Shown: positions 748 through 63,448 of the stretch, piece by piece
Layout of the letters: the number at the start of each line of letters is the position of its first letter
Numbering within the stretch: the stretch's first letter is position 1
Assembly: GCF_963921235.1 (NCBI RefSeq)
Contig: NC_086097.1
Location: forward strand, 8,866,001 to 8,930,000
Source of the DNA: Mobula hypostoma
Taxonomy: Eukaryota
DNA length: 64,000 bases
Reading direction: 5' to 3'
Position numbers and translations under genes: made by a program
The notes under the pieces: model-generated
The model's database searches: none
What the model was told of the DNA's origin: nothing
Seen by the model: only the letters and a program-made list of their open reading frames with translations

Positions 748-974
748 CAAACGCAAGAACATCACAGGTGCTGGAAATCCAAGCAGCCTACAAAATGCTG
801 GAGGAACTCAACAGGTCAGACAGCATCTACGAAAAAATTAAACAATCAATGTTTTGGGCCAAGACCCTTCTTCAGGACGGGAGAAGGGTCTCGGCGTGAA
901 ATGTCCACTGTTTTCTCTTTTCCATGAATACTGCCTGGCCTGCTGAGATCCTCCAGCATCTTGTGTGTGTTGCT
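748..974. mobile_element. PLE-derived fold-back (hairpin) element, diverged
   Basis: The left arm caaaatgctggaggaactcaacagg... is the reverse complement of the right arm ...cctgctgagatcctccagcatcttgtg. A decayed hammerhead motif lies near the centre (~879). Confidence 0.8.
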
Positions 975-1789
975 TTAAAATAAAGCTGTTAGGTTGAAAA
1001 ATGCAACTGCACCAAATTTAATATGTACTCCTGTTTTTTCACATGTTCTCCAGACATCATAAAGGAAGTCAAGACTGAGATGAAAGCAGCTCCTGTAAAC
1101 TTTATCCACCAGATATACTCGTTTATTATGCACTGACATACAGTCCATCTGGTAATCAAAGAACAGAATTACTTCAGAACAATGTTCGAACTGAGTCTTC
1201 TGCTATACAAAATGCGTCCATTAGCTTTCTTTGAATTTTCTTTAAATGTGACTTTTAATTTATAAAGTATTGAAGTTGAATAGTATCAATTTCTCTGCAT
1301 TGAATTGTTTTGTCTGCTATTTCAAAAGATATGCAAATCATTTGTCTTGGAGATTAAAAAAGTTTTCTCCCTTTCTGAATTCAAATTTGCAACTGAACCA
1401 TGGTGGGATGAGCTGATATGCTTAAATGAATGAGCCTTTGAAAATACTGATGGGATTGAGAATTTTGATGGGATTGCAAGCACTTGTCTTTAACCTACTT
1501 GATTTAAATCGCTATTCAAATCAAGGCAGAGTAATATTTGGTGTGGTTTAAAGATATTTTTCCACACTATCTCACAACTTACTATTATCTGAAAATCCAA
1601 CCTGCTTTGGTGGTGTGCAAGAGAGCAGTGCACTGATGCATTCCAATAGCCCATGGCCATCACAATATTCTCTGAAAACTAAGAAAGATGGCACCAGCAA
1701 ACAATGCAACCAAAGGCAATGTCCTTCAGATAGTTCACAAAACTACTTCTTTTACTTCTTCTTCTTCTAAAGACGGTTCTGCTACTAAT

Positions 1790-2950
1790 CTGCTTGTGAT
1801 TGGAACCTGTGATTTATATATTGATGGTGCGTTTTCGGGTCGATTGAGTGATTTGGTGCTTTGTTGTCTTTAAGGGAGTGCAGTGAGGTTTCGAGCAGAG
1901 TGTGCAGCCTGGAGGCCCCGAGGGCTGGAGACAGGGTGCAAGTCTATGACTGGCTCCAGTTTCTCGCCAATCCCGCCAACTAAAGTGCCGAGCAAGTTTG
2001 AAATCAGCAAGGAAGAGAGCAGAAAGCAAGTGGATGTTCAAACGCCTTCTGCCTACATTTGACCAGTCTCTCTCTCCCTCTCACTTGATGCTCCCAGAGG
2101 AAGATGCCTGCGTTTGACTGTCCTCTCTAGCTGCTCCCAGAGGAAGGTGCCTGTGTTTGACTGCTTTCTCTAGCTGATCCCAGAGGAAGGTTCCTCCATT
2201 TGACCAGTCTCTCTCTCCCTCTCACTTGATGCTCCCAGAGGAAGGTGCCTGTGTTTGACCAGTCTCTCTCGCTCGTGCTCACTGCTCCCAGAGGAAGGTG
2301 CCTGTGTTTGACTGTCCTCTCTAGCTGCTCCCAGAGGAAGGTGCCTGTGTTTGACTGCTTTCTCTAGCTGATCCCAGAGGAAGGTTCCTCCATTTGACCA
2401 GTCTCGCTCTCCGTCTCTCTCAATGCTCCTGGAGGAAAGTGACTGTATTTGACCAGACTCTTTCGATTTTGCTCACTGCTCTGAGAGGAAGGTTCCTCCG
2501 TTTGACCAGTCTCTCTCTCCCTCTCTCTCTTGATGCTCCTGAAGGATGATGCAAGAGTTGTGGGTCTTGAGTAAGTTTTAACCAACGCAGTTTGTAGATT
2601 GGACTCTGCAGTTCATGTTACGATATGTTTCTGGTTTCTGGTTTCTGGTTACTCCTTTTTTTATTGCTATTTTGTGCGATTCTGATCAGGGTGGAGTGGT
2701 TCTGCGGCCTGCAATTAATGAATGACACAATGCTAAATTCAATCAAACTGGACTGTTTCAATGACTCTCATTTGATGATTTATATCCTGTGTTTTTCACT
2801 CATTTTTTTTGCTGTTTGCATATTGGGTGTTTGATTGAATGTATCCCATAGTATTTCTTTGTTTCCTGGCTGTCTGTGGGAAGACAAATCTCAGTGTTGT
2901 ATACTGCATCCGTACATTGATAATAAATGTACTTTGAGTCTTTGAATCTT
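1790..2950 (+). mobile_element. Non-autonomous LINE-tailed element hosting the minisatellite
   Basis: GC-rich head, then an AT-rich tail ending ...ataataaatgtactttgagtctttgaatct. The same tail type recurs at ~21845, ~43785 and ~47070. Confidence 0.5.
2058..2550. repeat. Minisatellite of 43-55 bp units with a 194 bp higher-order period
   Basis: Units starting TTTGAC at 2058, 2113, 2156, 2199, 2254, 2307, 2350, 2393, 2448, 2501, each with the core gctcccagaggaagg or a close variant. Confidence 0.9.
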
Positions 2951-3017
2951 TTAAGTAAAGTTTTTTTTCAGCTAATGACACAACATTCAGCCTTCCCCAG
3001 TGTTTTTCAGGGCATTA

Positions 3018-3875: not shown

Positions 3876-5167
3876 CATTGTAAGAATCAGCCAACATTGT
3901 AGTCACTTGCCCTGAACTTCACTGGCATTTCAGCTCCGTGTTACTCCAGATATTTAAAAAAAAAATCAATCAAGCATGTCAGGAGTGGCCTTGCTTTTAA
4001 ATATCAGTGAATGAGATGGTCCCAAATTGAATTACTTCCCAGTTGAATGTGTTACATATTTTTCTCATGTTATATTACCATTCCCAGGGTGCTGTGGCTT
4101 CACTTTAGCATAAATCATCACAATTATTACTGTACCAGAGGATCTTTTGGCACTATTTTATACATAACCTGGGGTCCATACCATAGTTCTGATGTTCAGC
4201 TGCTAACCTGCTTTTCTCTTTAAGGCTACTGGTTAAGAACTCCTCATGGTAACTGAGAAAACACTGACCCTTGTAATGAATTGATGTCAACTAAAGGTTA
4301 GAAAATTGCCCACAAATTTCAGGTTAGGCAGCCCTGGGGTGAGATGGCAGGATCCCTAACGGGTTATATAGCATCTTTTACAGAATATGATGACAAGCCA
4401 GCCTGGTGTGAGACTTGTGTGCATACATATCCATTAGTAAATTTCTAATTTATTGTGAACAGTGACAGCATGGCTTAGTTTTGAGTGTGGCTGTCTTCAG
4501 AATCTAAACTGCCTTTGAAGAAAGATCCCAAAGAGTCTGAGGGACAGGAAGGGGACTCCAACAGTTCAACGAGTAGTGAACAGGTGACTGATAGAACAGC
4601 TTCCAAAAAATAATCTAGAAAAAAGACTTCCAGGATGTATATCGTCTACATTTCTCTGACATTAAATGTACCTTTGAAACCTTTGTAACCTATGAGAAAT
4701 TTCAAGGTTCAAATTTCAAAGTTCAAAGTACAATTTATAATCAAAGTATATATAATTTGCTTATAGGCAGCCACAAACCAAGAAACCCAATATAACCCAA
4801 TTTTAACAAAGATCAACACCAATACAGAGAGAGAAAGAAAGAAACAAATCCAACCAAGCCATTCAAACAGTAAAGAGAGCATCAGCATTTAGAACAAAAT
4901 TGAGTCCATAAACCTGAAGCCTGGAACAGATGAAATGGGCCTATAGTCTTAGTCTCAGTTCATCACACAGAGAGACAAACCACTGTGAAGCTCGTAGACA
5001 CTAAGCCTGGATCACCCAGAGCATGACACAACCTCAGCCTCAGTGCCAAGGAAAAATTAATGTTATTGAGTAAAATAATAGGTGAAATCCACCAAGTAAA
5101 ATGGTAGCACACTCAGTCACAGTGGCCTCTCTGAGTCCAAACAAAAATATAATTGTTCGTCCTTTAC

Positions 5168-8110: not shown

Positions 8111-9271
8111 ACAAAGAAGGGAATTAAAAAGAAACTTAACCTTGAGCTTTTTGCTTCACTTGTTTTCTCTGACTGAAGCCTCTCTTTGCCAAAGCATCAA
8201 ATGGCGAAAGCCTCAAGATCGTCACTCTGATTCTGCCTTCGAGGCTTCAGCAAAGAGAGGCTTCAGTCAGAGAAAACAAATGAAGAGAAAAGCTCAAGAT
8301 TAAGTTTTTTTCCTTTCCGTTCTTTATGATGATGGCCCCTGTGCCTGTCCCTGCCTTCCTTCAATTTGCTCTTGCTAATCAATCCCAAATGCCAATTGGT
8401 CGCTGTTCAAAGCTCTATTTCGCTGTAGCAACCCACTGATGCATTTTGCACTCAGGCAGCAGACCCGATTGAAGTCCCCTCCTCTCTAAACTTCTGAAGT
8501 CTGTATTGGCCACTGAGCAAAGCGTTGTTTTTTGCTGTAGTGACCCGCTGCTGCCTTTTGTATGCAGGCAGGGGACTTGATTGAAATCCTCTCTTCTTTG
8601 TGTCGTTTTACGATCACGAGACACATGATCATCAGGAACATCAAGTACAGTAGGTCTACCTCAATAGTGGGTTGCCAGATAGCAGAAGAGCTGGAATTGC
8701 TGTGCACCATGTTGCAGCCTGCTTTGGTCACTCAGTGAAGAAGGCATTACAGCTGGTGCACGGAGGTGATACGCGATCCAACAAATGGTGGAAGTGATTA
8801 GACATTTTTATTGTGATCCTGTGTGGACATTGTAATGTAGAATAGTGCAAGTCCAATACACTGATTTATTGGCAAGACCAATGGCAGGGAAGCTGTGCGG
8901 ACTCAGATGTGGCACGGCCCAGGCTCTCACCGATGCCTTGGGATTGCCTGTTGCAGCCGCCGAGGAGAAGACGCTGGAACCGGCTGTGTGCCGTTGGACT
9001 CCATGCTAGAATGGAGGCTGACCCTCACATCTGTGCTGCTCTCCAGTGGAAGACAAGCTAGATTGTCTTCATCTTCGGCTGTACTTGCGCAAGATGAGGA
9101 ACTGCTACGGGCTTGTTCATACAGCCACCTGGCTCTAGGACAACATCTGATGCACCATCAACCTACAGGCCTTGACTCTCAGGGACTTGGACTATATTAT
9201 TATTACTTACAACATACATCAAAGTTGCTGGTGAACGCAGCAGGCCAGGCAGCATCTATAGGAAGAGGCGC

Positions 9272-9307
9272 AGTCGACGTTTCAGGCCGAGACCCTTCGT
9301 CAGGACT
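9272..9307 (-). ncRNA. Minimal type I hammerhead ribozyme motif (other arm)
   Basis: Reverse complement reads agtc CTGACGA a ggg tctcgg cct GAAA cg TC gact. Confidence 0.8.
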
Positions 9308-9376
9308 AACTGAAGGAAGAGTGAGTAAGGGATTTATATCCAACTTTCAAATCCCTTACTCACTCTTCCTTCAGTT

Positions 9377-9412
9377 AGTCCTGACGAGGGGTCTCGGCCT
9401 GAAACGTCGACT
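9377..9412 (+). ncRNA. Minimal type I hammerhead ribozyme motif
   Basis: agtc CTGACGA g ggg tctcgg cct GAAA cg TC gact. Stem I agtc/gact, core CUGANGA and GAAA, short stem II, palindromic ACGU in place of stem III. Predicted cut after C9408. Confidence 0.8.
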
Positions 9413-10020
9413 GCACCTCTTCCTACAGATGCTGCTTGGCCTGCTGCGTTCACCAGCAACTTTGATATATGTTGAATTTCCAGCATCTGCAGAATTCCTG
9501 TTGTTTGTGTTATTATTACTTACTTATTTTTATTTGTAACTATATGTTATTCTGCTTTTGTAACAATATGTACTATATGTGCTGTGTGCTCTGTATGACA
9601 GTTGGTACTGTGCGTGGCAGCTTGGTCCCAAAGGAACGCTGTTTGTTTGGCTGTATTCATGGGTATGGTTGAATGGCAATTAAACTTGAACTTGTACTTG
9701 GACAGTTCCGGAAGCATGGGAGGGAATTATATAATCAGAGATCATTGGAAGCTTTGGAGTCTGTGAGCATCATGTGAAAAGGTGCTTGAACTGGGGACAG
9801 GAAGTGGGGAAGTGTGAAAATAGACAAGCTCAAGGTATGTAGTTTGCGAAGAAGGGCAGCCAAGGAGAAAGTGACTTGTTCTGTCAATGGAATCAACTCT
9901 GACAAATACAATGTATTCCAAGGTCATGCTCCACCTCCTTCCTTATCCCCATCCAGTTCTTATCTTCAAATTCTTGCCCTCAAGTTTTTAATTATAAATT
10001 ATTTGCTTGTCACTATTGCT

Positions 10021-12089: not shown

Positions 12090-12415
12090 ATAACTCTGCC
12101 ATGGATGGTCCCAAGCCCGATTGTGAAAGGAGGAGGGTTAGGCTTGGGGCTAGCAACTCCATTCTGTGAAAACCCCGGTTTCAAACCTGGTGGTGAGACG
12201 AGGAAGGCTTGGACCTGGGGCTAGCAACTCCATCCTGTAAAAACTCAGAGCTACAGAAACACCAACAGAAGCTCCAAAGATCTCATCATTGAGAGAAGGA
12301 ACTGCGCCTGGAAAACACCTGGGGACAAATTGAAAGACTGGCCCAGGACAGAGGACTCCCGTGAGCTTCTGTCAGCGGCCTATGCCCCAGTAGAGATGAC
12401 GGGCTTAAGTAAATA
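12090..12415 (+). mobile_element. Short RTE-derived non-autonomous element
   Basis: Motif ggagggttaggcttggggctagcaactcc and tail ...cttaagtaaataa. Same family at 14490-14745 (-) and 22170-22445 (+). Confidence 0.65.
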
Positions 12416-13189
12416 AACTGATCACGAAAGGATATAAAATTGCCTTTCAATTCTCTTTAAAACCTGCTCTTTTGCTCGTTTTGCGTCTTCCTCTCTGCAG
12501 TAATATTAATATTGTTTCTGTTTCTATTGTTTATCCCTCTGCAATAATATCAATGTCGTTTCTGAATTCCTAAATAATTGAAAATGTTCTTCTAATGTCA
12601 GTAAAAATAAACTTACATGTACTTGTGCATCTAAATATTACATTTCTGGATAATGTTCACAAACTAACAACATTTATAATTTACGATATTTTAGTATGTT
12701 TCTAAATAGAGAGCATTCTTTCAACATTCAAAGTGGAAAATGTTGTACGTACATCATTTTGAATTGGGTTTCTGTGTTAGTACTTTTATCATGACTTGTA
12801 AGGCAAGTTGTAACAATATGAGAAAGTGAGGACATGCATGTCAAATTATGCCACGTTGTTGCACCAACAACTGGTATGGAAACTCCAGTGCATAGGAAGG
12901 CAAGAGGTGGCACGTGGTTATAGACTCAGTCAGATCCATTACGGGTACAATCTACCACATCACCAAGGACCTCTTCAAGACAGGGTGCCTTAAGAAGGCA
13001 GAATCCACCATTAAGGACTCTCACTATCCAGGGTGTGTCCTCTTTTTGCTAATACCATTACGGAGGAGGCACAGCAGCTTGGCGTCACAAACTTCGACAA
13101 TTTAGGAACAGCTTCTTCTCCTCTGCCATCCGAATTTTGAGTGATCCATGAACCTATGAACACTACCTCATTATGAATATAAAGAAATC

Positions 13190-13475
13190 AAAAGCAACAC
13201 ATACAAAATGCTGGAGGAACCCGGCAGGTCAGGGAGTATCTGTGGAAATGACTGAACAGTCAACGTTTTGGACTGAGACCCTTCTTCGGGACTGGAAAGG
13301 AAGCGGGGAAGATGCCAGAATAAAAAGGTGGGGGTAAGGGAAGAAGGATTGCTGGAAGGTGACAGGTGGAGCCAGGTGGGTGGGAAAGGTAAAGGGCTGG
13401 AGAGAAAAGAATCCGATAGGAAATGAGAGTGGACCAAAGGAGAAAGGGAAGGAGGAGAGGACCCATGGGGAAGTG
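13190..13475 (-). mobile_element. Neptune-like PLE 3' UTR fragment with decayed hammerhead, inserted in a Rex1-type tail
   Basis: Matches the hairpin-arm sequence, then the pyrimidine-rich (minus-strand) UTR shared with 34870-35270 and 53085-53445. Confidence 0.75.
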
Positions 13476-13754
13476 ATGTAATTATTTTCATTCCTTTATT
13501 CCTCATTTTTCCTTTTTTTGCATTATTTGCTTTTTTGATATCTTTACGCTGCTGCAAGACATCAAATTTTACATCATATGTCAGTGATAATATATTTGAT
13601 TCTGATTCAATGAGATAAATTCTGAAGAGATGCATCTCTTCTCCTGTTCTGTTTTCACAATAGAGGAAGGATATCTCCTTGCTCTTGTAGTGGGTAATAA
13701 CACAGCAATTGTCTTGATTACATAATACATAGCAAAACAATTAACTACCTGAGT

Positions 13755-14745: not shown

Positions 14746-14859
14746 TCAAAATAAACCACTTCAGACATCAGACCTCATTTGTACATGAGATGCAAGGGGA
14801 CTGAAGCAAACGTTTCATGCAAAAGAAAGGAGAAATATGGGAATAAGGATATAAAAAAA

Positions 14860-15078
14860 ATCTGCCAGTGCTGGAAATAGAGAGTAATTCACACAAAAAA
14901 GCTGGATGAACTCAGCAGGTCAGGCAGCGTCTATGGAACTGAATAAAGAGTCAATGTTTCAGGCCAAGACCCTTCATCAGGACCCAGATGAAGGTCTCAG
15001 CCCGACACATCAACTGTTTACTCTTTTTATAGATGCTACCTGACCCGCTGAGGTCCTCCAGCATTTTGTGTGTGATGC
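14860..15078. mobile_element. PLE-derived fold-back element, diverged
   Basis: Inverted arms meet at ~14983; the minus arm reads gtcCTGATGAagggtcttggcctGAAAcattgact. Confidence 0.8.
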
Positions 15079-19110: not shown

Positions 19111-19114
19111 CATG

Positions 19115-19510
19115 TAATATGTATTGAAATTAACAAACAGTTGATATTTTGGGCCGAGACTGTTCTTCAGGAATGCAAAGGAAGGGGGAAGAGATTAGAA
19201 TAAAAAGGTGGGGGGAGGGGCAGGAGGATAGGTAGAAGATGATAGGTGAAGCCAGGTGAGTGAGAAAGATAAAGAGCTGGAGGGAAAGGAATCTGATCGG
19301 AGAGGAGAGTGGACCGTAAAAGAAAGGGAAGGAGGAGTGGCACCAGAGGGGAGGCCATAGGCAGCTGAGAAGAGGTAAGAGACCAGAGTGGGGAACAGAG
19401 AAAAAAAGTGGAGAGGGAGGGAATTTTTCTTAACTGTAGGAGAAATTGACATTCATGCAATCCAGTTGGAGGCTACCCAGTGGAATATAAGGTGTTGCTC
19501 CTCCACACTG
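19115..19510 (-). mobile_element. Neptune-like PLE 3' fragment
   Basis: End of the GIY-YIG region (19440-19510), pyrimidine-rich UTR and decayed hammerhead (~19140-19172). Confidence 0.75.
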
Positions 19511-20157
19511 AGGGAGATCTCACCTTTGGATAAGAGGAGGACAGGGACTGCAAGAGTGTGTAACAGCTTCTTCCCTCAGGCTGTGAAACTGAGACCCTGG
19601 CACCACCGAGGTCTCATCACTCGGACAGCAAGCTATACTGTTTACTGTTTACCTGTGTTGCACACTGCAGTATTTTGAATTATATTTTATTAACATATTC
19701 ATGGTAATATCTTGGCTTATGTGCTGTATATGATATGTGCTTCGTGGGTGCACCATGGTCCAAAGAAACACTGTTTTATTTGTTTGTATATATTTACAAT
19801 CAGATTACAATAACCTTGAACTTGAACTATTGAAGAAGGTGGTGACTCATCACCTCCTTTAAGCCACTTCTATCTTCCGGTGAAGGTGCTGCCCAGGTTA
19901 TTTTTGGGAAGGATGTTTCAGGAATTGGATTTGGTCGTTGAAATGATGGAAGGTGATATACTTCTTAATCAATGGATGGCCTCTTTTCTTCCAAAGAAAT
20001 ACTACCTATTAAAAAATAACAAGTCTGTAACACTGAAAGATTGACTTGCACACTGAAAGCCCACAACCACACATTCCAAGTCACTGGTCCAAGCAGGTTC
20101 ATTGAAATAAAGCATCAGGCCAAGACTCTCATCTGCACCAAGTAATACTGTTGGATT

Positions 20158-32261: not shown

Positions 32262-32542
32262 TGTGTTGTGGTAGCGCGACAGTATTACGGCTTGGGGCAT
32301 TACTGAGTTCAGAGTTCAATTCCGGCACCATCTGGAAGGAGTTTTCATATTCTTCCCATGAGCGGCATTGGTTTCCTCCGGGTGCTCCCACAATCCAGTG
32401 ATATACCAGTTAGTAGATTAGCTGGTCATTGTAAATTGTCCTGTGATTAGGCTAGTATTAAATAGGTTGGTTGTTGGGTGATGTGGCTCATTGTGCAAAA
32501 AGGGCCTGTTCTGTGCTGTATCTCTAAATAAAATAAATAAAT
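32262..32542 (+). mobile_element. tRNA-headed SINE
   Basis: tggtagcgcg A-box-like and gagttcaattccgg B-box-like motifs; core ggtttcctccgggtgctcc; tail (taaaa)n. Confidence 0.75.
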
Positions 32543-32543
32543 A

Positions 32544-32878
32544 GAGCAACACGTGCAAAATGCTGGAGAAACTCAGCAGGTCAGGCAGCATCTATGGAAA
32601 TGAATAAACAGTCGACATTTTGGGCCGAGACCCTTTATCAAGGACTATCAGACGTCACCTGAGATGCTGCAGATACTGGAAATCGTGAGTAACACATACA
32701 AAATACTGGAGGAACTCAGCAGGTCAGGCAGCAACTATGGAGGGGAATAAACAGCTGATATTTTGGGCTGAGTACTGTCCAAACAAATATTCCATTCATA
32801 GATGCAGCCCAACCTGCTGAATTTCCCCAGTGTTTTGTGTGAGTTGCTCCAAATTTCCAGCATCAGCTATTTGTTCTT
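32544..32878. mobile_element. Cluster of PLE arms: one single arm plus one fold-back
   Basis: Two tandem minus arms (32544-32646, 32662-32772) followed by a plus arm (~32790-32878). Hammerheads are decayed. Confidence 0.75.
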
Positions 32879-32881
32879 GTC

Positions 32882-34718: not shown

Positions 34719-34869
34719 ACTGTATAAGAGTGAAAAATTTACAAATGTGATCTCCCATTCTACCTAACAATAACCTTGCTCAATATAATCTGAAGTATTA
34801 AAGACTTGACATCCATTTTTATTAAAGCTCACTCCCGAACACACGCTCTCAAATACTAAGGATTCTCAC

Positions 34870-35599
34870 AATACACATCAAAGTTGCTGGTGAATGCAGC
34901 AGGCCAGGAAGCATCTCTAGGAAGAGGTACAGTTGATGTTTCGGGATGAGACACTTCGTCAGAACTAACTGAAGAAAGAGATAGTAAGAGATTTGAAAGT
35001 GGGAGGGGGAGGGAGAGATCCAAAATGATAGGAGAAAACAGGCAGGGGAGGGATGGAGCCAGGAGCTGGACAGGTGATTGGCAAAGGGGATATGAGAGGA
35101 TCACGGGACAGGAGGCCCAGGGAGAAAGAAAGGGCGGGGGGGTAAACCCAGAGGATGGGCAAGAGGTATAGTCAGAGGGACAGAGGGAGAAAAAGGAGAG
35201 AGAGAGAGAAAGAATGTGTGTGTATATAAATAAATAACAGATGGGGTACGAGGGGGAGGTGGGCATTAGCGGAAGTTAGAGAAGTCAATGCTCATGCCAT
35301 CAGGTTGGAGACTACCCAGACGGAATTGTTTCTCCAACCTGAGTGTGGCTTCATCTTTACAGTAGAGGAGGCTGTGGATAGACATGTCAGAATGGGAATG
35401 GGATGTGGAATTAAAATGTGTGGCCACTGGGAGATCCTGCTTACTCTGGCGGACAGAGCATAGGTGTTCAGCGAAACGATCTCCCAGTCTACGTCAGGTC
35501 TTGCCAATATATAGAAGGCCACATCGGGAGCACCAGACGCAGTATATCACCCCAGCCGACTCACAGGTGAAGTGTCGCCTCACCTGGAAGGACTGTCTG
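34870..35599 (-). mobile_element. 5'-truncated Neptune-like Penelope element: GIY-YIG pseudogene + 3' UTR + hammerhead
   Basis: My translation from ~35598: RQSFQVRRHFTCESAGVIYCVWCSRCGLLYIGKT*RRLGDRFAEHL...VATHFN...H...LRLEKQ/FRLGSLQPDGMSIDFSNFR*. 11 bp TSD aggattctcac (34859-34869, 35600-35610). Confidence 0.9.
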
Positions 35600-36169
35600 A
35601 GGATTCTCACTTTTTTTTGCCGATTAGTTCTGCTTTATTTTCACAATTTTGAAATTTCTCTCATCCAGAAGACTTAAAAATAGTTTTTAGGATCTGTTTC
35701 TTCCCAACACAGATTGTTGGGACAATTCCCACGGAATTTTCATAAAAATTTAACTCCACTTTCCAACAAAGTACACTATCCGTACATGTTCCATATGGTA
35801 GCATTTTATATCCATCTTCCTTCTTTGTATATTAGTCCTCTGACAGTGGTTCCTCTTAGTGGATTGAAATTGTCACCTCAGGCCCTTGAGTACAAATCAA
35901 AATTCAAGCAGGGTCAGCGTTTTCACAGTAGGAAAATCATACTTTTCAGGCACTGCTATTTTAGATGTTAGCAGGTCAGTGATGGTCTAGATTGGTCTGA
36001 CCTTCTGACCCAAGTACTTAAAAGGTCAAAAAGCATGAAGATGCACTTCTCAATGGTCAGGAACACAGCAAATATGAGAATCTTGTTGAACTGAATGGGT
36101 AAGGGACGTTAGAATCTCTTTATATTTCCACTTTTTGCCAGCATATTAGGTCAAGGATGTGTATTTAGC

Positions 36170-38333: not shown

Positions 38334-38375
<42 letters not shown>

Positions 38376-39179: not shown

Positions 39180-39304
39180 AAACACGAGAAATTCTGCAGA
39201 TGCTGGAAATCCAGAGCAACACACACAAAATGCTGAAGGAATTCAGCAGGTCAGGCAAATGAATAAGCAGTCAACATTTTAGGCTGAGACCCTTCCTCAG
39301 GACC
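39180..39304 (-). mobile_element. Single PLE 3' arm with tail
   Basis: aaacacgagaaattctgcagatgctggaaatcc...gagacccttcctcaggac; truncated right at the 5' edge of the hammerhead. Confidence 0.8.
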
Positions 39305-48786: not shown

Positions 48787-48989
48787 ACAGGAATTCTGCA
48801 GATGCTGGAAATTCAAGCAACATACATCAAAGTTGCTGGTGAACGCAGCAGGCCAGGCAGCATCTCTAGGAAGAGGTACAGTTGACATTTCAGGCCTGAC
48901 GAAGGGTCTCGGCCTGAAACGTTGACTGTGCCTCTTCCTAGAGATGCTGCCTGGCCTGCTGCGTTCACCAGCAACTTTGATGTGTGTTG
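48787..48989. mobile_element. PLE-derived fold-back element, young
   Basis: Near-perfect arms; plus-strand core CTGACGAagggtctcggcctGAAAcgTTgact from 48896; 15 bp TSD ttccaattgcatgca (48772-48786, 48990-49004). Confidence 0.93.
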
Positions 48990-49733: not shown

Positions 49734-49919
49734 ACAAAATACTCTGCAGGTGCTGGGGTCCAAGCAACACACACAACACGCTAGAGGAACTCAGCAGGTC
49801 GGGCAGCATCCGTGGAAATGAACAGTCAGCGTTTCGGACCAAGACCCTTCGTACGTTGACTGATCACTTCCACGGATGCTGCCCGACCTGCTGAGTTCCT
49901 CCAGCATGTTGTGCGTGGT
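49734..49919. mobile_element. PLE-derived fold-back element (second subfamily)
   Basis: Inverted arms; 16 bp TSD cca(a/g)tggatggggaat (49718-49733, 49920-49935). Confidence 0.9.
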
Positions 49920-50030
49920 CCAGTGGATGGGGAATCAGGTGCAGTTCAGAAGCCTGATTGTTGTGGGGTAGTAACTGTTCCTGATCCTGATAATGCAAAT
50001 CTTGAGGCTCTTGTATCTTCTATCTGATGG

Positions 50031-50153
50031 CAAGGGATCTGGCCCGAAACGTCGACTGATCGTTTCCACGGATGCTGCCCGACCTGCTGAGTTCCTCCAG
50101 CGTGTTGTGAGTGTTGCTTTGACCCCAGCATCTGCAGAGTATTTTGTGATTTT
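50031..50153 (+). mobile_element. Single PLE 3' arm beginning inside the hammerhead
   Basis: aagggatctggcccGAAAcgTCgactg...cagcatctgcagagtattttgtg. Confidence 0.85.
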
Positions 50154-51564: not shown

Positions 51565-52895
51565 ATGGATAAGTCTGCTTTTGAAATCCCATCCCTGATT
51601 ACTATGTATCTACCTGGGAAGGCCATAATAGATGAAATACTTCTCCCATAACACTTTTACTACCGTAGATGCCCTCTGGCCCTTGGTAGGAAAAGCCTGA
51701 GCACATCTGGGATAGTGCTCTGTGACGACCAAGACATTCGCCGTGTTGCTGGCATTGGGTTCTATTGGCAGGAAATCCATACACACCAGTTCCACAGGCC
51801 CCACACTCTGCAAGAGGGACAAGGGAGCTGCGCGCATAGGCAGTGTCTTCTGCCATATGATCGAATGCACGACTTGCAGTATTCTTCGACCTCGGATTCC
51901 ACCCGGGGCCAGTAAAACCGGTGTCTGAGCAACCCATCAGTCTTTTCCACCCCCAGGTGTCCAGAATCATCAAGAAGTGATTTCAACGCAATCTTCCGAT
52001 ACTTCCCTGGCAGAACCAGCTGGCAACGCTGGGGTCGGTCTGGGGGTGACGTGACCCAGTGTAAGATCTAGTTCTGCAACTCCAACCAGGGCCATTCTCT
52101 CAGTAATGGAGGCACTGACACATGTTTCATCTTCTCCGCCTGAGCCACGTCTCCCTTTTCCACCGCTGACCAAATGGTACCAATGCCCAGATCATCTCGC
52201 TGAGCAGCAGCCACTTCCCCAGAGCTCAATTCCAGCAGCTGGTTTGTCTTCAGAGCAGTCAGGTTACAGTAAACTTGTGGAAAGGCGTCATCAGAGCTCT
52301 CAATTGATCCACCGTTCTCTGCTGCCCCTCCTTTCCCTCTGCCTTCACAGTGATGGCAAACTGACACATGGCCTTCACCCCAGGGGCAGAAACGCTTTCC
52401 CACTCCTCGGCCCTGACCAGTCCCTCATGCACCCATCGGGACAAAGCATCAGCATCAATGTTCCAGCTTCCCAGTCAGTACTTCACGCTGAAATCACAGG
52501 CAGACAACGTGCCAACCACTGATAGCCTGTGGCATCCAGTTTCACCGAGGTCAGGATAAGAAGTTAGAAGGTTGTTGTCCGTCCTCACCTCAAACTTGGC
52601 CCTGTAGAGGTAGTCACTCAGCTTATCCATCATCGCCCATTTCAATGCCAGAAATTCCAACTTGTGCGTGGGATAGTTTTTCTCGGAGGGCTCCAGACTC
52701 CGGCTGTCAAACGCAACGGGCCTCAACCCGGAGCCCTGATCCTGATACAGGACGCCCCTTAAACCTTCTCAGCTTGCACCTGTGTGCAGTATATATGGCG
52801 ATCGGGGGTCTGCAAAAGCCAGTACAGGCGCTTGGGTCAGCAGCTCCTTCAGTGACTGAAAGGCCTCCTGACGTTTTGCATCCCAGCTTGGTCCA
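51565..52895 (-). pseudogene. Gypsy/Ty3 pol remnant (RNase H, then integrase)
   Basis: RPVAFDSRSLEPSEKNYPTHKLEFLALKWA...EVRTDNN; GHLGVEKT...RFYWPR...YCKSC; ELVCMDFL; IHSNQGWDF. The RH-before-INT order indicates Gypsy. Frameshifted, no adjacent LTRs. Confidence 0.92.
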
Positions 52896-53064
52896 ACATT
52901 TCTCTCATTGGATAGCCCCCACATTCCAAAACCCCGTTATCTCTATCATAACCCAAACATTGCTGCTACAGGGAAACCATTACATTAGCAGTGAAACATT
53001 ACAGAGAGGCCATTACATTAGCGATGAAGCCTTACAGCATGTTACAAAGAAAAGCTGGATAATA

Positions 53065-54005
53065 TTCAAGCAACACACATAAAATGCTGGAGGAACTTAG
53101 CAGGCCAGGCAATATCTATGGAAAACAGTACAGTTGACATTTTGGGCTGAGATCCTTCTGCAGGACTGGAGGGAAAGAAAATGAGAAGTAGATTTATAAG
53201 GTGGGGGGAGTGTACGGAGAGACACAAGGTGATAGGTGAAACCAGGAAAGGGAGGGATGATGTAAAAGAGCTGGGTAGGTGATTGGTGAAAGAAATACAG
53301 GGCTGGGGAAAGGAGAATCTGATAAGAAAGGACAGAAGGCCATGGAAGAAAGAAAAGGGGGAAGGAACACCAGAGGGAGGCGATGGGCAGGCAAGGAGAT
53401 AAGGTGAGAGAGGGGAAAGGGGAGGGGAATGGGGGATGAGGCATTACCAGAAGTTCGAGAAATCAATGTTCGTGCCATCAGGTTGGAGGCTACCTAGACG
53501 GAATATAAGATGTTGTTCTTCCAACCTGAGTGTGGCCTCATCACAACAGGCCATAGATTGACATATCAGAATGGGAATGGGAAGTGGAATTAAAATGGTG
53601 GCCATTGGAAGGTCCCTCTTCTTGTGGATGGAGCATATGTGCTCGGCAAAGCAGTCTCCCAATTTATGTTGGGTCTCACCGATATATAGTAGGCCACACT
53701 GGGAGCACTAGATACAATATACGACTTCTACAGACTTATAGGTAGTGTCGCCTCACCTGGAAGGATTGTTTGGGGCCCTGAATGACAGTGAGGGAGTAGG
53801 TGTAGGGGCAGGTGTATCACTTGTTCTGCTTGCAAGGATAAGTGCCAGGAGGGAGATCACTGGGGAGGGTTGAATGGACAAGGGAGTCATGCAGGGAGCT
53901 ATTTGTGCAGAAAGCAGAAAATGGGGGTGAAGGAAAGATGTGCTTGGTGGTGGGATCCTGTTGGAGATGGCTGAAGTTCTGGAGAATTATGCAGAGGCTG
54001 GTGGG
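53065..54005 (-). mobile_element. Neptune-like PLE, longest fragment (Cys linker + GIY-YIG + 3' UTR)
   Basis: Linker TYPCKQNK*YTCPY (~53800-53843); ORF 53444-53662 GDCFAEH...LRLEEQHLIFRLGSLQPDG; decayed hammerhead at ~53131-53168. Confidence 0.88.
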
Positions 54006-54280
54006 GTCATATGCCTTGTCCTCTTATACTGAGGAAAGCACACAAAAAACAGTCAAAATTGAAGTTCAAAGAATGAACACATATTGGAGGAACATAATGA
54101 ACAATTGAGGTAATTACTACATAATTTTAAACCAACTTTGATGCAGTTAGTTCAAAACTTAAAATAAACAGCAAACTATTTAATAGAAAAGATTAAACAA
54201 AATGAGGTAAATAGATATTTTCTACTCTGCCAGCAATTATTAACTTCTTTAAAAATGGTCCCCTAACACCTCTGACTAAA

Positions 54281-54416
54281 AACAAATTAGTCTGAAGATG
54301 CTGGGGTCAAAGCTACACTCGGAGTCCTGACGAAGGGTTCCGGCCCGAAACGTCAACCGATCTTTTCCACGGATGCTGCCCGACCTGCTGAGTTCCTCCA
54401 GTGTGTTGTGAGTGTT
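54281..54416. mobile_element. Short PLE fold-back element with an intact hammerhead core on +
   Basis: agtc CTGACGA a GGG ttccgg CCC GAAA cg TC aacc (54323-54358); 13 bp TSD acctctgactaaa (54268-54280, 54417-54429). Confidence 0.9.
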
Positions 54417-54556
54417 ACCTCTGACTAAAGCAACTGAGAGACACATAGAGGAATTAAAACTTTGTAAATGGAATTTTATCCTAATATCTTTTCAGATATA
54501 ATAGTCATAAGTTATCAAACATATCAGGTCTTGAAAAATAGCAGTGTTATATTTAC

Positions 54557-56372: not shown

Positions 56373-56430
56373 ACACTATTACAGCTCGGGGCATTGGAAG
56401 TTGAAGGTCAATACTGACGTCATCTGTAAA

Positions 56431-56630
56431 AAGCACACACAAAATGCTGGAGGAACTCAGCAGGCCAGGCAGAATCTAAGGAAAAAGTCAACGTTTTGGG
56501 CCGAGACCCTTCAGCGAGACTGAAACGTCGACTGTACTCTTTTCCATAGATGCTACCTGGCCTGCTGAGTTCCTCTGGCATTTTGTGCGTGTTGCTTGGA
56601 TTTCCAGCATCTGCAGATTTTTTCTTGTTT
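56431..56630. mobile_element. PLE-derived fold-back element nested in a tRNA SINE (~56375-56862)
   Basis: Inverted arms; 12 bp TSD gtcatctgtaaa (56419-56430, 56631-56642). Confidence 0.9.
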
Positions 56631-59450: not shown

Positions 59451-60117
59451 GGGATTTAAATTGTATCACTGAAAATAAATGAACTGTGCGTTAAACTACT
59501 TTGTTATCGGGAGATATCTTCTCCTTGGTTGGAAGAGGAGACCCACCACTCAAATAGTGGATATTGGCAGTTAAGCTCACCATGAAGAATAAACAGGGAA
59601 GTGAATTAGCCTTTGAAGATTGGTAGTACAGTATTATCTCTCTTTAATTAGAGTACTCATGGCTATTTATATCAGTTGGAGCTTACGGTCATTGTTTGAG
59701 TTTAGCACTTTCCAGTCAGCAAGCACAAAATCATAGCACTGCATCACATTCTGGAATGGGAATTGCAAGGCATCTGACCACAAGACCCTACTAAGGATTA
59801 TGAGGACTGCCAAGCGGACCATCACGGCTTCTCTTCCACCCTTCTGAGATATTTATCATCTGGCTGGAGGTACCAAAGCATTAGTACAAGCATTTTTAGA
59901 ATGGGAAACAGTTTTTTCCACAGACCATGAAACTACTGAACTACCTGTCACCACCCTGGCCATATCACGTATGAAGCACCAATAGCATTATACTGTCTAC
60001 TTTTTTAACTTATGTTGCAAAAGCACCTTATTATTTGTTAATTTATTTGTGGTGATACTAATTTATGTTTTGTGTGTGAGTTATATGTACTGTATTGTGC
60101 ACCTTGGGCCAGAGGAA

Positions 60118-60287
60118 GCAGGAGAATATCTGCAGATGCTGAAAATCCGAGCAAAACACACAAAATGCTGGAAGAACTCAGCAGGCCAGGCAGCATCTAT
60201 GGAAAAAAGATGTCGGTCCGAAATGTCAACTGTACTTTTCTCCATAGGTGCTGCCTGGGCTGCTGAGTTCCTCCAGCATTTTGAGTT
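60118..60287. mobile_element. PLE-derived fold-back element
   Basis: Inverted arms around ~60210; decayed flanking duplication ggccagaggaa / ggtctggaggaa. Confidence 0.82.
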
Positions 60288-60670: not shown

Positions 60671-62165
60671 GCCTAAAAGTTTGAGCGGGGATAACTTCAC
60701 TCACCCCAATACTGAACTGATTGTACATCCTATAGACTCACTTTCAAGGACTCATGTTCTCAATATTTATTGCTTATTTATATATTATTATTATTATCTT
60801 TTTTTTATATTTGCAGTTTGTTGTCTTTTCCACATTGGTTGTCTATCCACCTTTGATGAGTGTGGATTTGTGCTGATTCTATTGTGTTTCTTTTCCATTT
60901 CTGTGAATGCCTGCAAGGAAATGGAAGTGACATATATGCACTTTGGTAATAAATTTACTTTGACCAACAAAAGCTTTCAAGCATGTCGCTCAGTGTGACA
61001 GAAGATCTTGAAAATGCAGTTCTTTGCAGGAACCATTACCTCAACTTGCAAGTTCAAGTGGAACGTCCAATGTCATTACATCAAGTCATCGTAGAGTCCT
61101 GATGGATGAGTCGATAGTAGTAGGGAATATTGAAACTGATAACGTTCTCCCAAAAGAAAGGTAGAAATTAAATTTACATAGCATTCCTTCTAGTTGAAAA
61201 TAATTTGTTACTTTTAAATGACAAGGTATTTGGGGGAAAGTTCTTCAAAATCGTCACCTGCACTAGCTTTTTGGGCAAAATTAAGACGAACAGGAGAAGA
61301 AACTGTATCACCCATGCTACGAAGGACCATGTGACATTAAAACTCTAGTTACCCAGAGAGGTTCTCTTCCTCTAAATTACGTTTGGGTTCACTCTGGCAG
61401 TAGGATCAGCAGAGGACAGAGAGCTGAGTATGGAAATGGGGATGGGAGTTGAAATGGCCTATAACCAGGAGCTCAAGATTTCCATAGGATTGAGAGCGTC
61501 ACTCAAGTGAATGCACTACTGGTCAAGTGTGCTTCCGCACTGATCACTAAAAGTGTAATGTCATTTACACGTTACTCCTGATGAAGGTTCTCAGCCCAAA
61601 ACATCACTTGTTCATTTCCCTCTGTAAGTGCTGCCTGACCTGCGTTTTTGTGTTCCAGATTTCCTGCAACAGTTGAATCTTTTGTGGACAGGAGGGTAGT
61701 CAAAACTGACCAACGTATCACCAGCTCCAAACTACCCGCCATCAAGGACATATGTACAGAAAGGTGCCAGAAAAAGGCCAGCAACGTTATAAAGGATCCC
61801 ACTCACCCTGCTTAGGGACTGTCTGTCCCACTCCCATCAGGGAGCAGGTTATGTGGCATCAATGTCAGGACCACCAGACTGAAGAATAGTTACTTTCCCC
61901 AAGCAGTAAGGTTGAACAACTCCCCCGCCCACTAACCCACCCCACTGCACCTCCACGACCACTACTGTATCATTCCTGCCAGTGTCACCGTTTCTGCTGC
62001 ATTGGATCCAGGGTAACAATTATTTTGTTCTCCTTTACACTTGTGTACTGGAAATGACATGAAACAAACTACTCTTGAATCTTGTTTGTACACGTGGTTG
62101 TCCCAGATGTTGGACTTCTGCACACCCTGCCCAGTTACTGGTGAAAACAACAAGTAGATATACAA

Positions 62166-62354
62166 CACACATCAAAGTTGCTGGTGAATGCAGCAGGCCA
62201 GGCAGCATCTCTAGGAAGAGGTACAGTCGACGTTTCGGGCCAGGACCTCGACTGTACCTCTTCCTAGAGATGCTGCCTGGCCGGATGCATTCACCAGCAA
62301 CTTTTATGTGTGTTGCTTGAAATTCCAGCATCTGCAGATTTCCTCGTGTTTAAC
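62166..62354. mobile_element. PLE-derived fold-back element, young
   Basis: Near-perfect arms; TSD tagatatacaa (62155-62165, 62355-62365). Confidence 0.92.
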
Positions 62355-63345
62355 TAGATATACAAGTTTTTGTAGAGAATTCATTTATGATAAAAACTTG
62401 TTTTGTCATTAATGATTCCCTTGCCAACTCAATATTCACAAATCTGGAGATTGTGATAACAACTTACTATAAATATTTATAGCACAATTCCTAATCTAAC
62501 GAAAGATGTTTACGTTTCACAACATTGGTTCAACAGGCAAGGACCTCAGCTAATGATGAACCTGATAATTTTGCCAGTGCTGAAATGGCACATCTTGAGG
62601 AGCAAGACATCTCTGAGATAACAGTAGAAGAGTGACAAGAGTTATATCTTAATCAATGGTTTGCACCACTGAGCTCAACAGTGGGAGGCAGAGCAAATGC
62701 CCGAGTGCACATATCAGCTACAGTTCTCAAGAGCAGCAAAGACAGAGAAGAGGAATTTAAGCAGGAGTCAGATGGATAAAAGGCTGGTTATGAATGGAAC
62801 AAGGACAGAGACAAAACACTGTCATGAGGGAGAAAGAGAGATGAATATTACATTGCAAAAGAGATTTCCTTTTAAATATGATCTTGATATTTGAGAAACT
62901 GCTGCAAGTCAGCAGTAATATTAGCAGTAAAAATGCTGGAATCTATAATCAAGGATGATAACAGAGGATGTTGAAAATATAGCATTGAGCTGAGTCAGCA
63001 AAAGAAGATTATGACGAGCTAATCTGCCGTATTTCTTCAAGAACAAGTCTCGTAGAATAGACAAGGGATGGATTTAAATGTTGAAACGGCCTTTCAATTA
63101 GGTCCTATATGAGATTGGTCAGCAAAGTTAGAGTGCATGGCATTCAAGTTCAAGTTGAATGTTATTGTCGTCTAACTATCCATATACAACCAAATGAAAC
63201 AATGTTCCTCTGGACCACAGTTTACCCACAAATCATATGTTACAGACAGCACATAAAACATTTCCACAAATAAGTTAGCAAAATATAACGCAAAATGCAT
63301 GTAGCGAGCAGCAAAGGTAAACAGAAAACAGTTCAGTAAACAGTC

Positions 63346-63448
63346 CTGATGTCCTGATGAAGGGTCTGGGCCCTAAACATCGAATGTATGTTCCCATCCA
63401 TACATGTTGCCTAACCTGCTGAGCTCCTCCAGCATTTTGAGTGTATTG
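63346..63448 (+). mobile_element. Single PLE arm starting at the hammerhead
   Basis: gtcCTGATGAagggtctgggccctaaacatcg...; 12 bp TSD cagtaaacagtc (63334-63345, 63449-63460). Confidence 0.85.

What the first reader, a model, noticed from the sequence alone, without database searches (positions are those of the whole stretch)
748..63448. High-copy family of tiny hammerhead-ribozyme hairpin retroelements derived from a Neptune PLE
Seen: about 20 related pieces in 64 kb. At least 10 are 130-300 bp fold-backs (748, 9211, 14860, ~32662, 48787, 49734, 54281, 56431, 60118, 62166) with arms whose 3' ends point outward. Six have clear 11-16 bp TSDs, and all contain whole or partial CUGANGA/GAAA hammerhead motifs. 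They look like MITEs, but long variable TSDs and identity to the 3' UTR of the GIY-YIG fragments show they are retrotransposed. Established: PLEs carry minimal type I hammerheads in their pseudo-LTRs and often insert as inverted partial tandems with a short tail. Inference: this genome holds a very large population of non-coding ribozyme-hairpin units (retrozyme-like) mobilised by a Neptune RT/endonuclease. I cannot tell from sequence alone whether this has been described for this lineage.
Basis: partly seen in the sequence, partly recalled or inferred. Interest (0 to 1): 0.8.

Follow-up and report, generated by a model that had tools for sequence, protein, structure and literature searches.

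The report
Truncated fold-back Penelope-like element insertions
The short hairpin-shaped repeats with hammerhead-ribozyme motifs are the tail-end stubs that a very abundant Penelope-like jumping gene leaves when it inserts, an already described pattern and not a new kind of mobile element.

Summary
The window holds about 21 insertions (30 arms by profile search), and 10 are head-to-head fold-backs at the stated coordinates. Seven of the 10 have clear 11-16 bp target-site duplications.

The arms are the last ~100-175 nt of the 3' UTR of a Penelope-like element (PLE). [quoted passage not shown] Each arm carries a minimal type-I hammerhead motif.

The features match the published PLE insertion architecture:
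- variable 5' truncation
- arms with 3' ends outward in 14 of 14 fold-backs
- a 35-nt "tail" on one side only in 9 of 10
- inner junctions that differ from copy to copy

The "retrozyme-like hairpin family" reading is not supported. The arms are inverted, not tandem, and each strand has one ribozyme buried in a long duplex.

The family is very large: 93,483 near-intact ribozyme copies, and roughly 0.3-0.7 million arms in total.

Three details go beyond the textbook picture:
- about two-thirds of ribozyme-bearing arms end within 40 nt 5' of the ribozyme
- specific junctions recur 63 to ~526 times
- one junction is shared by two loci

These leave about 20% for a trans-mobilised mini-element. An earlier scan note on another genome reached the same verdict.

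The parts
747..976 (.). Fold-back. Antisense arm with tail on the left, sense arm without tail on the right. Junction ...CAGGAC|GGGAG|AAGGG. Old copy, no clear TSD.
9211..9509 (.). Young fold-back. 126-nt antisense arm, 13-nt spacer, 135-nt sense arm plus 35-nt tail. 14-nt TSD TTATTATTACTTAC at 9197-9210 and 9510-9523. Both arms carry an intact min-hammerhead.
13181..13482 (-). Single 5'-truncated copy, ~300 nt of 3' UTR.
14849..15078 (.). Fold-back with the tail on the left arm. TSD ~12 nt (ATGGGAAT.AAGG, one indel).
19111..19547 (-). Single decayed copy reaching into the end of the endonuclease coding region.
32542..32653 (-). Single short arm that begins at GTCCT, the 5' edge of the ribozyme.
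32656..32880 (.). Fold-back, decayed, with tail-like sequence at both ends.
34846..35602 (-). Long 5'-truncated copy. C-terminal 112 aa of the GIY-YIG endonuclease region (87.5% identity to the reference) plus the whole 3' UTR.
39180..39303 (-). Single short arm with tail, beginning at GTCCTGA.
48787..48989 (.). Fold-back with the 'type A' junction. The short antisense arm has the tail and the longer sense arm does not. 15-nt TSD TTCCAATTGCATGCA.
49737..49919 (.). Fold-back with the tail on the left. 16-nt TSD with 1 mismatch. Junction at the CGT|ACG palindrome.
50024..50150 (+). Separate single short arm with tail.
53059..54007 (-). Long 5'-truncated copy of an older subfamily. Endonuclease region (55-60% aa identity to the reference) plus 3' UTR.
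54281..54417 (.). Fold-back whose antisense arm is only the tail plus ~8 nt. The sense arm runs from the ribozyme's 5' edge. 13-nt TSD ACCTCTGACTAAA.
56431..56630 (.). Fold-back with the tail on the right arm. 12-nt TSD GTCATCTGTAAA.
60117..60285 (.). Fold-back with the tail on the left. Short 52-nt inverted core.
61571..61684 (+). Single short arm, decayed.
62166..62354 (.). Fold-back with the 'type B' junction. Tail on the right arm. 11-nt TSD TAGATATACAA.
63350..63455 (+). Single short arm. 8 nt of its 5' end are duplicated just upstream.

Best explanation
What the pieces are. They are dead-on-arrival insertions of the 3'-terminal module of a very abundant, recently active Penelope-like retrotransposon. 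[quoted passage not shown]

The module. It carries a minimal type-I hammerhead motif: helix I AGUC/GACU, core CUGANGA, one bulged A, helix II GGGU-CUCG-GCC(C/U), then GAAA, a palindromic ACGU in place of helix III, and the cleavage triplet GUC. The motif lies about 66 nt and about 102 nt upstream of two alternative 3' ends. The difference between those ends is the 35-nt 'tail'.

How fold-backs form (inferred). They arise at integration.
1. The endonuclease cuts both target strands 11-16 bp apart, which gives the TSD.
2. Each 3'-OH primes reverse transcription at one of the two internal start sites on element RNA.
3. The two antisense cDNAs grow towards each other.
4. They mostly stop at the 5' edge of the ribozyme or inside it.
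5. They are joined by 0-4 nt of microhomology or filler.
The result is two arms head to head, 3' ends outward, with the tail on one side. Single short arms are the same product without the second priming.

Shown here: identity of the arms to the PLE 3' UTR, the length continuum, the orientation rule, the TSDs, the one-sided tail, and the junction diversity and hot spots.
Inferred: twin priming and joining, by analogy with the in vitro behaviour of the anole PLE, which cleaves and extends both strands and has two internal RT start sites (PMC11167929).
For: 1. Parent element. The arm is 98-100% identical to 40 of 40 scored genome matches. In other loci the same sequence continues upstream for 360-1141 nt into an ORF end with Cx4CxxC and GIY-YIG. 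Pfam PF01541 scores 22.8 bits against a cut-off of 22.6. One copy with a 1054-codon open frame shows ADKGG and RYIDD motifs and a weak RVT_1 hit at E=6e-4. The endonuclease query gave 232,626 first-look candidates. The 150 that were scored are 99-100% identical.
2. PLE insertion hallmarks. Long copies have a short inverted partner directly upstream (L003 131 nt, L008 242 nt). There are two 3' ends, at about ref 1104 and about ref 1140. The tail is on one side only in 9 of 10 window fold-backs.
3. Orientation. 14 of 14 fold-backs are minus/plus. Among the first 100 exact ribozyme matches on contig 1 there are 9 minus/plus pairs within 1 kb, 0 plus/minus and 1 same-strand. Their spacings are 38, 48, 73, 83, 405, 476, 609, 721 and 824 nt, which is a continuum.
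4. TSDs are 11-16 nt in 7 window fold-backs and 7 further loci.
5. Junctions. They differ between copies. The type A junction is exactly what two cDNAs ending at ref 1026 and ref 1010 would give if joined through CC/GG. It occurs on two subfamily backgrounds, and in each locus both arms share that locus's variants (L044 against L042, L043, L046 and L047). The untailed outer ends vary over ref 1100-1108.
6. Frequencies. Recurrent junctions are about 0.1-0.6% of the 93,483 ribozyme-bearing arms. That is about what hot spots would give.
7. Literature. All of these features are described for PLEs.
Against: - Identical junctions recur at 213 (type A), 63 (type B) and about 526 (type C) loci. Amplification of fold-back masters would also give this.
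- In 5 of 5 simple type A loci the tail is on the shorter arm. That could be inherited and not mechanistic.
- The 9211 junction, including its 4-nt ATAT filler, occurs at exactly one other locus. That locus has unrelated flanks and a different TSD, and it shares 2 arm-to-arm differences in the same polarity. This looks like copying of a fold-back as a unit, or ectopic conversion.
- Arm length is not a smooth truncation curve. Counts are 93,483 at the ribozyme, 51,692 twenty nt upstream and 32,138 forty nt upstream, then flat at 36,333 about 400 nt further on. A defined short template RNA would explain this as well as an RT stop would.
- No wet or RNA evidence for twin priming exists for this element.
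- No pLTR was seen upstream of the one long copy examined.
Confidence: 0.75

Rival explanations
1. Non-autonomous mini-element. The ~100-135-nt ribozyme module, alone or as a fold-back, is transcribed as its own short RNA with a 5' end just upstream of the ribozyme. The PLE RT/EN copies it in trans. The short arms and some fold-backs are then a SINE-like parasite lineage and not truncation products.
For: - There is a discrete short class. About two-thirds of ribozyme-bearing arms end within 40 nt 5' of the ribozyme, and none are lost over the next ~400 nt. In the unbiased 264 kb, 25 of 54 arms start at ref 969-1012.
- Junctions recur.
- The 9211 junction is shared with L010.
- An 8-nt duplication at the 5' end of the 63350 arm, and three-piece structures in L040 and L045, look like template jumps from an RNA 5' end.
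- In vitro, the anole PLE needs only about 150 nt of RNA around the ribozyme and the RT start sites (PMC11167929 passages).
Against: - Short arms carry no diagnostic differences from the 3' ends of long copies. They are 97-99% identical, the same as long copies are to each other.
- The antisense arm of a fold-back ends at the same RT start sites, with copy-specific offsets. That fits priming at both ends and does not fit an RNA 5' end.
- Type A occurs on two subfamily backgrounds with concerted arms.
- No flanking sequence is carried along.
- No run on record as RNA was available to test for such RNAs.
Confidence: 0.2
2. Retrozyme-like units. The ribozyme excises a unit RNA, which circularises and is retrotransposed.
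For: - The module has a min-hammerhead core with only N7 free to vary.
- PLE pLTRs are reported as the source of animal retrozymes (bioRxiv 10.64898/2026.07.22.740005, abstract and Results read).
- Rare same-strand neighbours exist (L032, L040; 1 of 100).
Against: - The arms are inverted or solitary, not head-to-tail tandems.
- Each strand of a fold-back has one ribozyme, and it is paired in a 126-bp duplex.
- 0 of 54 arms start at the predicted cleavage site, ref 1037-1041.
- The motif is the minimal variant without loop-loop contacts. In the youngest subfamily it has G.U at 10.1-11.1.
- Rfam hammerhead models do not match.
Confidence: 0.03
3. MITE or fold-back DNA transposon with terminal inverted repeats.
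For: Hairpin shape and flanking direct repeats.
Against: - TSD length varies from 11 to 16 nt.
- Single arms are as common as fold-backs.
- The arms equal a retrotransposon 3' UTR.
- The two ends are asymmetric because of the one-sided tail.
- Inner ends are variable.
Confidence: 0.01

Closest known systems
Insertion units of canonical endonuclease-positive Penelope-like elements (Craig et al. 2021, PMC8557442; Goubert et al. 2022, PMC8969392; passages read)
   Same: Heavy 5' truncation. An inverted 5'-truncated copy abutting the unit. A 30-40-bp tail, often at one end only. A hammerhead motif in the terminal repeat. A GIY-YIG endonuclease at the C-terminus, with a CX2-5CxxC linker in Neptune and Nematis.
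   Different: Here most units are extremely short (~100-175 nt), so many insertions are nothing but two stubs. No upstream pLTR was seen on the one long copy examined. The copy number is very high.
Minimal hammerheads of metazoan PLEs (Cervera and de la Pena 2014, PMC4209133; parts 1-2 of the text read)
   Same: Short helix I. [quoted passage not shown] Palindromic 15.2-16.2 in place of helix III. Motifs mostly solitary, or in pairs on opposite strands 100-700 bp apart. Massive numbers per genome.
   Different: That paper reports about 4,000-9,000 motifs in the richest vertebrates. Here 93,483 copies lie within 2 mismatches of one 36-nt version. The youngest subfamily has U, not C, at 11.1.
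In vitro integration by the anole Poseidon element PAc (Mob DNA 2024, PMC11167929; passages read)
   Same: Two internal RT start sites whose spacing equals the tail. Both target strands are cleaved and extended. The ribozyme lies ~90 nt upstream of the start sites. About 150 nt of RNA suffices. Ribozyme cleavage is not needed, and no reads end at the cut site.
   Different: A different clade and host. In PAc the module overlaps the ORF start. Here it lies after the stop codon of the copies examined.
Animal non-LTR retrozymes (Cervera and de la Pena 2020, PMC7229834, passages; Li et al. 2026 bioRxiv 10.64898/2026.07.22.740005, abstract and Results)
   Same: Non-coding type-I hammerhead repeats related to PLE pLTRs. 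Monomer 'offspring' are scattered in genomes.
   Different: Retrozymes are head-to-tail tandems of 150-450 bp with canonical ribozymes, and are expressed as circular RNAs. These arms are inverted or single and carry the minimal motif.
Twin priming of LINE-1
   Same: Both ends of a staggered break prime on the RNA, giving an inverted 5' part joined by microhomology.
   Different: In L1 the second primer anneals inside the RNA, so only one arm has the 3' end. Here both arms start at the element's 3' start sites.

Membership tests
Penelope-like elements (EN+) | RT with PLE hallmarks (DKG motif, YxDD) | tested here: met
   ADKGG and RYIDD are present in the 1054-codon open frame of L041. Pfam RVT_1 scores only 20 bits, E=6e-4, below its cut-off of 29.6, and gives no hit at E<=0.01 on the whole ORF. 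The DKG motif is named in passages of PMC8557442.
Penelope-like elements (EN+) | C-terminal GIY-YIG endonuclease | tested here: met
   PF01541 scores 22.8 bits against a cut-off of 22.6 on the 235-aa fragment. On the whole ORF it scores 19.7 bits, below the cut-off.
Penelope-like elements (EN+) | 5'-truncated insertions with an adjacent inverted 5'-truncated copy | tested here: met
   Truncation points at 360-1141 nt, with inverted partners of 131 and 242 nt. 14 of 14 fold-backs are head to head.
Penelope-like elements (EN+) | 30-40-bp tail at one end | tested here: met
   A 35-nt extension is present or absent at the 3' end. It is one-sided in 9 of 10 window fold-backs.
Penelope-like elements (EN+) | Partial tandems forming pLTRs | tested here: inconclusive
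   Same-strand neighbours are rare (L032, L040; 1 of 100). The long copy L041 has no second module within 1.6 kb upstream. Only one long copy was examined.
Neptune clade | Zn-finger-like CX2-5CxxC linker between RT and EN | tested here: met
   CKRNKCYTC lies upstream of the GIY-YIG domain. The criterion comes from PMC8557442 passages. Nematis shares this feature.
Neptune clade | RT phylogeny groups with Neptune references | not tested
   No reference PLE proteins were at hand and no tree was built.
Minimal PLE hammerhead (type I) | Core CUGANGA...GAAA...UH with helices I and II, a bulged nucleotide after A9, and palindromic 15.2-16.2 | tested here: met
   A strict descriptor matches 2 of 30 window arms and 5 of 27 sample arms, against 0 in 50 shuffles. 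N7 is the only weakly conserved core position (0.3 against 0.7-0.9).
Minimal PLE hammerhead (type I) | G10.1-C11.1 pair | tested here: inconclusive
   Older subfamilies have GGCCC-GAAA. The youngest and most numerous version has GGCCU-GAAA, which gives G.U.
Minimal PLE hammerhead (type I) | Self-cleavage, as a dimer | not testable with these tools
   The single arm has no significant fold (z=+1.1). The monomer MFE pairs GACG with CGUC across the core.
Rfam hammerhead families | Match to a curated covariance model | tested here: not met
   No hammerhead hit at gathering score or at E<=10 in 64 kb. This is expected for a motif without helix III.
Animal non-LTR retrozymes | Head-to-tail tandem repeats of 150-450 bp flanked by ribozymes | tested here: not met
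   The arms are inverted or single.
Animal non-LTR retrozymes | Unit-length linear and circular RNAs | not testable with these tools
   No holder on record as RNA, and only contigs are kept.
MITE / fold-back DNA transposon | Constant short TSD and fixed terminal inverted repeats | tested here: not met
   TSDs are 11-16 nt. The two ends are asymmetric. Single arms are common.

The most novel reading that the evidence does not exclude
The hammerhead module may be a self-sufficient template of ~100-135 nt with a defined 5' end at the ribozyme's 5' edge, copied in trans by the PLE enzyme. That would make it the smallest and most numerous non-autonomous PLE parasite known. The folded or dimerised ribozyme would act as a stop and strand-switch signal for the reverse transcriptase and not as a cleaving enzyme. 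This would explain the termination zone, the junction hot spots inside the ribozyme and the fold-backs.
Probability: 0.2. Interest if true: 0.6.

Novelty: new member of a known kind. Interest (0 to 1): 0.3.

Why it matters
Mostly as annotation. Hairpins of this kind can be mistaken for MITEs, miRNA precursors or new ribozyme elements. Rfam's best below-threshold hits on them are miRNA families.

For PLE specialists the genome offers a very large, young data set. It holds tens of thousands of near-identical insertions, in which end points and junctions can be read at single-base resolution. That could test how the enzyme primes on both strands, where it stops, and whether the hammerhead has a structural role. 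The role of the hammerhead is still open in the literature (PMC8557442, PMC11167929).

Tried and rejected
- Rfam at gathering score and at E<=10 gave no hammerhead. The top hits on the fold-backs are miRNA-precursor models far below threshold, that is, generic hairpins.
- A DNA search of the genome with the first 200 nt of the 1.1-kb reference returned nothing, probably because the tool skips very common words. I used the protein instead.
- Covariation in helices I and II could not be assessed. All subfamilies share nearly the same helix sequences, and differences in old copies are mostly CpG decay.
- Core nucleotides are not more conserved than the rest of the 130-nt module, apart from the free N7.
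- Folding of the monomer and a two-copy cofold gave no informative ribozyme fold.
- The PDB sequence search with the ORF found nothing meaningful.
- RNA evidence: no RNA holder was listed. All 22 runs are kept as contigs and their kind is a guess. I did not lay them, because contigs cannot show RNA ends.
The unbiased sample is therefore 200 kb plus the window. Loci for junction types B and C could not be cut out.
- I looked for an upstream pLTR or a TSD for the long copy L041 and found none. Its 5' end lies inside an unrelated LINE fragment.
- PMC522041 (Pyatkov 2004) is not held, so typical PLE TSD lengths rest on recall only.
- Searches for a printed description of PLE 'twin priming' or PLE fold-back non-autonomous elements found no paper on the point in their listings (listings only).

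Full report
**What is in the window**

The window is G000:C1:8866001-8930000 of a 3.48-Gb, 200-contig animal genome. Earlier scan notes call it a probable cartilaginous fish. I did not test that.

The repeat finder shows direct-repeat families of 9-11 copies and nine inverted pairs within 400 nt. The 126-nt right arm of the 9211 element finds 23 blastn matches in the window. An iterated 131-position nhmmer profile finds 30 arms in the window. It finds 27 arms in twenty 10-kb stretches taken at fixed coordinates on ten large contigs.
- That is one arm per 2.1 kb in the window and one per 7.4 kb in the sample, so the window is about 3.5-fold enriched.
- Extrapolated, the genome holds roughly 0.47 million arms (Poisson range about 0.31-0.68 million).

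54281 has only a ~40-nt antisense arm. The arm at 50024-50150 is a separate single insertion.

**What the arms are**

The 9211 arm is 98-100% identical to 40 of 40 scored matches elsewhere in the genome. In those loci the same sequence continues upstream for 360, 563, 650, 895, 1006 or 1141 nt.

The 1143-nt reference (L003) reads in one frame through ...PCKRNKCYTCP...VIYCVRCSRCGLLYIGET... to a stop, followed by ~435 nt of 3' UTR.
- Pfam gives GIY-YIG at 22.8 bits against a cut-off of 22.6.
- A copy with a 1054-codon open frame (L041) has ADKGG and RYIDD motifs upstream of the same endonuclease.
- On the whole ORF, Pfam reports only GIY-YIG, at 19.7 bits and below cut-off.
- On the RT part alone, RVT_1 reaches 20 bits, E=6e-4, below its cut-off.
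- The Cx4CxxC linker is the feature that passages of PMC8557442 give for Neptune and Nematis. No tree was made.

The endonuclease query gave 232,626 first-look candidates. All 150 scored were 99-100% identical, with open frames of 241-1054 codons. The family is therefore huge and recently active.

In the window, 34846-35602 and 53059-54007 run from endonuclease coding sequence into the module.

**The ribozyme motif**

In sense orientation the module reads AGUC-CUGACGA-A-GGGUCUCGGCC(U/C)-GAAA-CGUC|GACU. The parts are:
- helix I of 4-5 bp
- the CUGANGA box
- one unpaired A
- a 4-bp helix II with a CUCG loop
- GAAA
- a palindromic ACGU where helix III would be
- the GUC triplet

This is the minimal PLE hammerhead of Cervera and de la Pena 2014. 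[quoted passage not shown]

Test results:
- A strict descriptor matches 2 of 30 window arms and 5 of 27 sample arms, and none in 50 Markov shuffles.
- Among 54 older copies every core position is 0.7-0.9 conserved except N7, at 0.3. The dips are CpG sites. The rest of the 130-nt module is just as conserved.
- Rfam finds no hammerhead, even at E<=10.
- The youngest version has U at 11.1, which gives G.U.
- Genome-wide, 93,483 sites lie within 2 mismatches of the 36-nt young ribozyme. The reversed-pattern control gives 0.

Catalysis was not and could not be tested here.

**Anatomy of the insertions**

- 3' ends: there are two, at about ref 1104 and about ref 1140. The 35 nt between them is the PLE 'tail' (PMC8557442 and PMC11167929 passages).
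- Tail side: in 9 of 10 window fold-backs the tail is on one side only.
- Orientation: all 14 fold-backs (10 in the window, 4 in the sample) are minus/plus. Among the first 100 exact ribozyme matches on contig 1 there are 9 minus/plus pairs within 1 kb, 0 plus/minus and 1 same-strand. Their spacings run from 38 to 824 nt.
- TSDs: 11-16 nt in seven window fold-backs and in L010, L023 and L043-L047.
- Inner junctions: they differ from copy to copy, with 0-5 nt of filler or 2-3 nt of microhomology.
- Long copies: they carry short inverted partners of 131 and 242 nt.

[quoted passage not shown] Cervera and de la Pena also noted solitary motifs and pairs on opposite strands.

**Why they are not retrozyme-like hairpin units**

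- A transcript of either strand of a fold-back holds one ribozyme. It is paired in a 126-bp duplex of -249 kcal/mol, z=-32.
- Retrozymes are head-to-tail tandems with canonical ribozymes.
- No arm (0 of 54) starts at the predicted cleavage site.

**Results that complicate the simple reading**

(a) Termination zone. Pattern counts (36 nt, <=2 mismatches) fall steeply just upstream of the ribozyme and then level off.

| Position of pattern | Matches |
|---|---|
| at the ribozyme | 93,483 |
| 20 nt upstream | 51,692 |
| 40 nt upstream | 32,138 |
| ~400 nt further, in coding sequence | 36,333 |
| 3'-end pattern (37 nt, <=3 mismatches) | 131,027 |

The unbiased 264 kb agrees. Arm starts fall at <=968 in 14 of 54, at 969-1012 in 25 of 54, and beyond 1012 in 15 of 54. 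There is a termination zone and not a smooth truncation curve. The patterns differ in polymorphism, so the ratios are approximate.

(b) Recurrent junctions. Type A occurs at 213 sites, type B at 63, and type C at 1052 matches. Type C is near-palindromic, so that is about 526 loci. Controls gave 0.

Of six type A loci fetched, five have the same architecture with different TSDs and one is a three-piece variant.

Three things argue against a single amplifying master:
- L044 carries the junction on a different subfamily background, and both of its arms share that background.
- The untailed ends vary over ref 1100-1108.
- The junction is what CC/GG pairing of two cDNAs stopped at ref 1026 and ref 1010 would give.

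The classes are about 0.1-0.6% of ribozyme-bearing arms. That is the order expected from two end-point hot spots.

(c) One shared junction. The 9211 junction, with its ATAT filler, exists at exactly one other locus, 840 kb away. That locus has unrelated flanks and another TSD. Its spacer is flipped relative to the tail. Two arm-to-arm differences are shared in the same polarity. I cannot tell whether this is unit copying or ectopic conversion.

**Mechanism**

The anole element cleaves and extends both target strands. It starts reverse transcription at two internal sites whose spacing equals the tail. It needs only ~150 nt of RNA, and it does not need ribozyme cleavage.

By analogy, I read the fold-backs as twin-primed cDNAs that stop early and are joined. 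I read the single stubs as one-sided products. This is inference. The sequence-level facts above are shown.

**Verdict**

The retrotransposon origin and the PLE parent are supported. The 'new hairpin or retrozyme-like family' reading is not.

This is a new, very large member of a known kind.

Noticed in passing
window 12087-12141 (+) and 22166-22220 (+): Two twister-P1-like motifs (RF03160, 36.5 and 35.7 bits, gathering score 67.2). Both keep the UAAC/GCC, CCCAAGCC, AAA and GGAGGG blocks but lack the model's P3 hairpin. They sit in a shared ~90-nt repeat that is 79% identical over 160 nt. This is a separate repeat family with a twister-like core.
   Followed up: partly
window 9211-9509 and L010 (G000:C1:9715557 region): The same fold-back junction, including a 4-nt filler, occurs at two loci 840 kb apart. 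The flanks are unrelated and the TSDs differ. The 13-nt spacer is flipped relative to the tail. Two arm-to-arm differences are shared.
   Followed up: partly
genome-wide, ref positions 968-1012 of the 3' UTR (window examples 39303, 54322, 63350, 32653): About two-thirds of ribozyme-bearing arms end in the 40 nt just 5' of the hammerhead, and none are lost over the next ~400 nt. This is a discrete stop zone of unknown cause.
   Followed up: partly
L003, L012-L020 and 93,483 genome sites: The youngest and most numerous ribozyme version has U, not C, at position 11.1 (G.U at the base of helix II). This suggests cleavage efficiency is not what is selected.
   Followed up: no
window 63342-63363; L040 7526-7565; L045 1480-1560: There is an 8-nt duplication at an arm's 5' end, and there are three-piece structures (antisense piece, short sense piece, full sense arm). 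They look like serial template switches.
   Followed up: no
window 51605-52768 (-): Fragments of an LTR-retrotransposon pol: Integrase_H2C2 at E=4e-13 and RT_RNaseH at E=2e-17.
   Followed up: no
window 6848-7225 (-) and 27378-27797 (-): LINE-type RVT_1 fragments (E=1.5e-8 and 4e-13), unrelated to the PLE.
   Followed up: no
window 33044-33520 (-), 36293-36574 (+), and 32904-33203 / 36572-36871: ORFs hit Pfam ALKBH8_N (E=1.6e-11 and 1.3e-6) inside a 300-nt repeat whose copies are 96% identical and 3.7 kb apart. This is probably the C-terminal part of a LINE ORF2, which often scores on that model.
   Followed up: no
window 2024-2528: Tandem array with alternating 43- and 55-nt spacing (9 copies) and a 194-nt higher-order repeat at 90% identity.
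   Followed up: no
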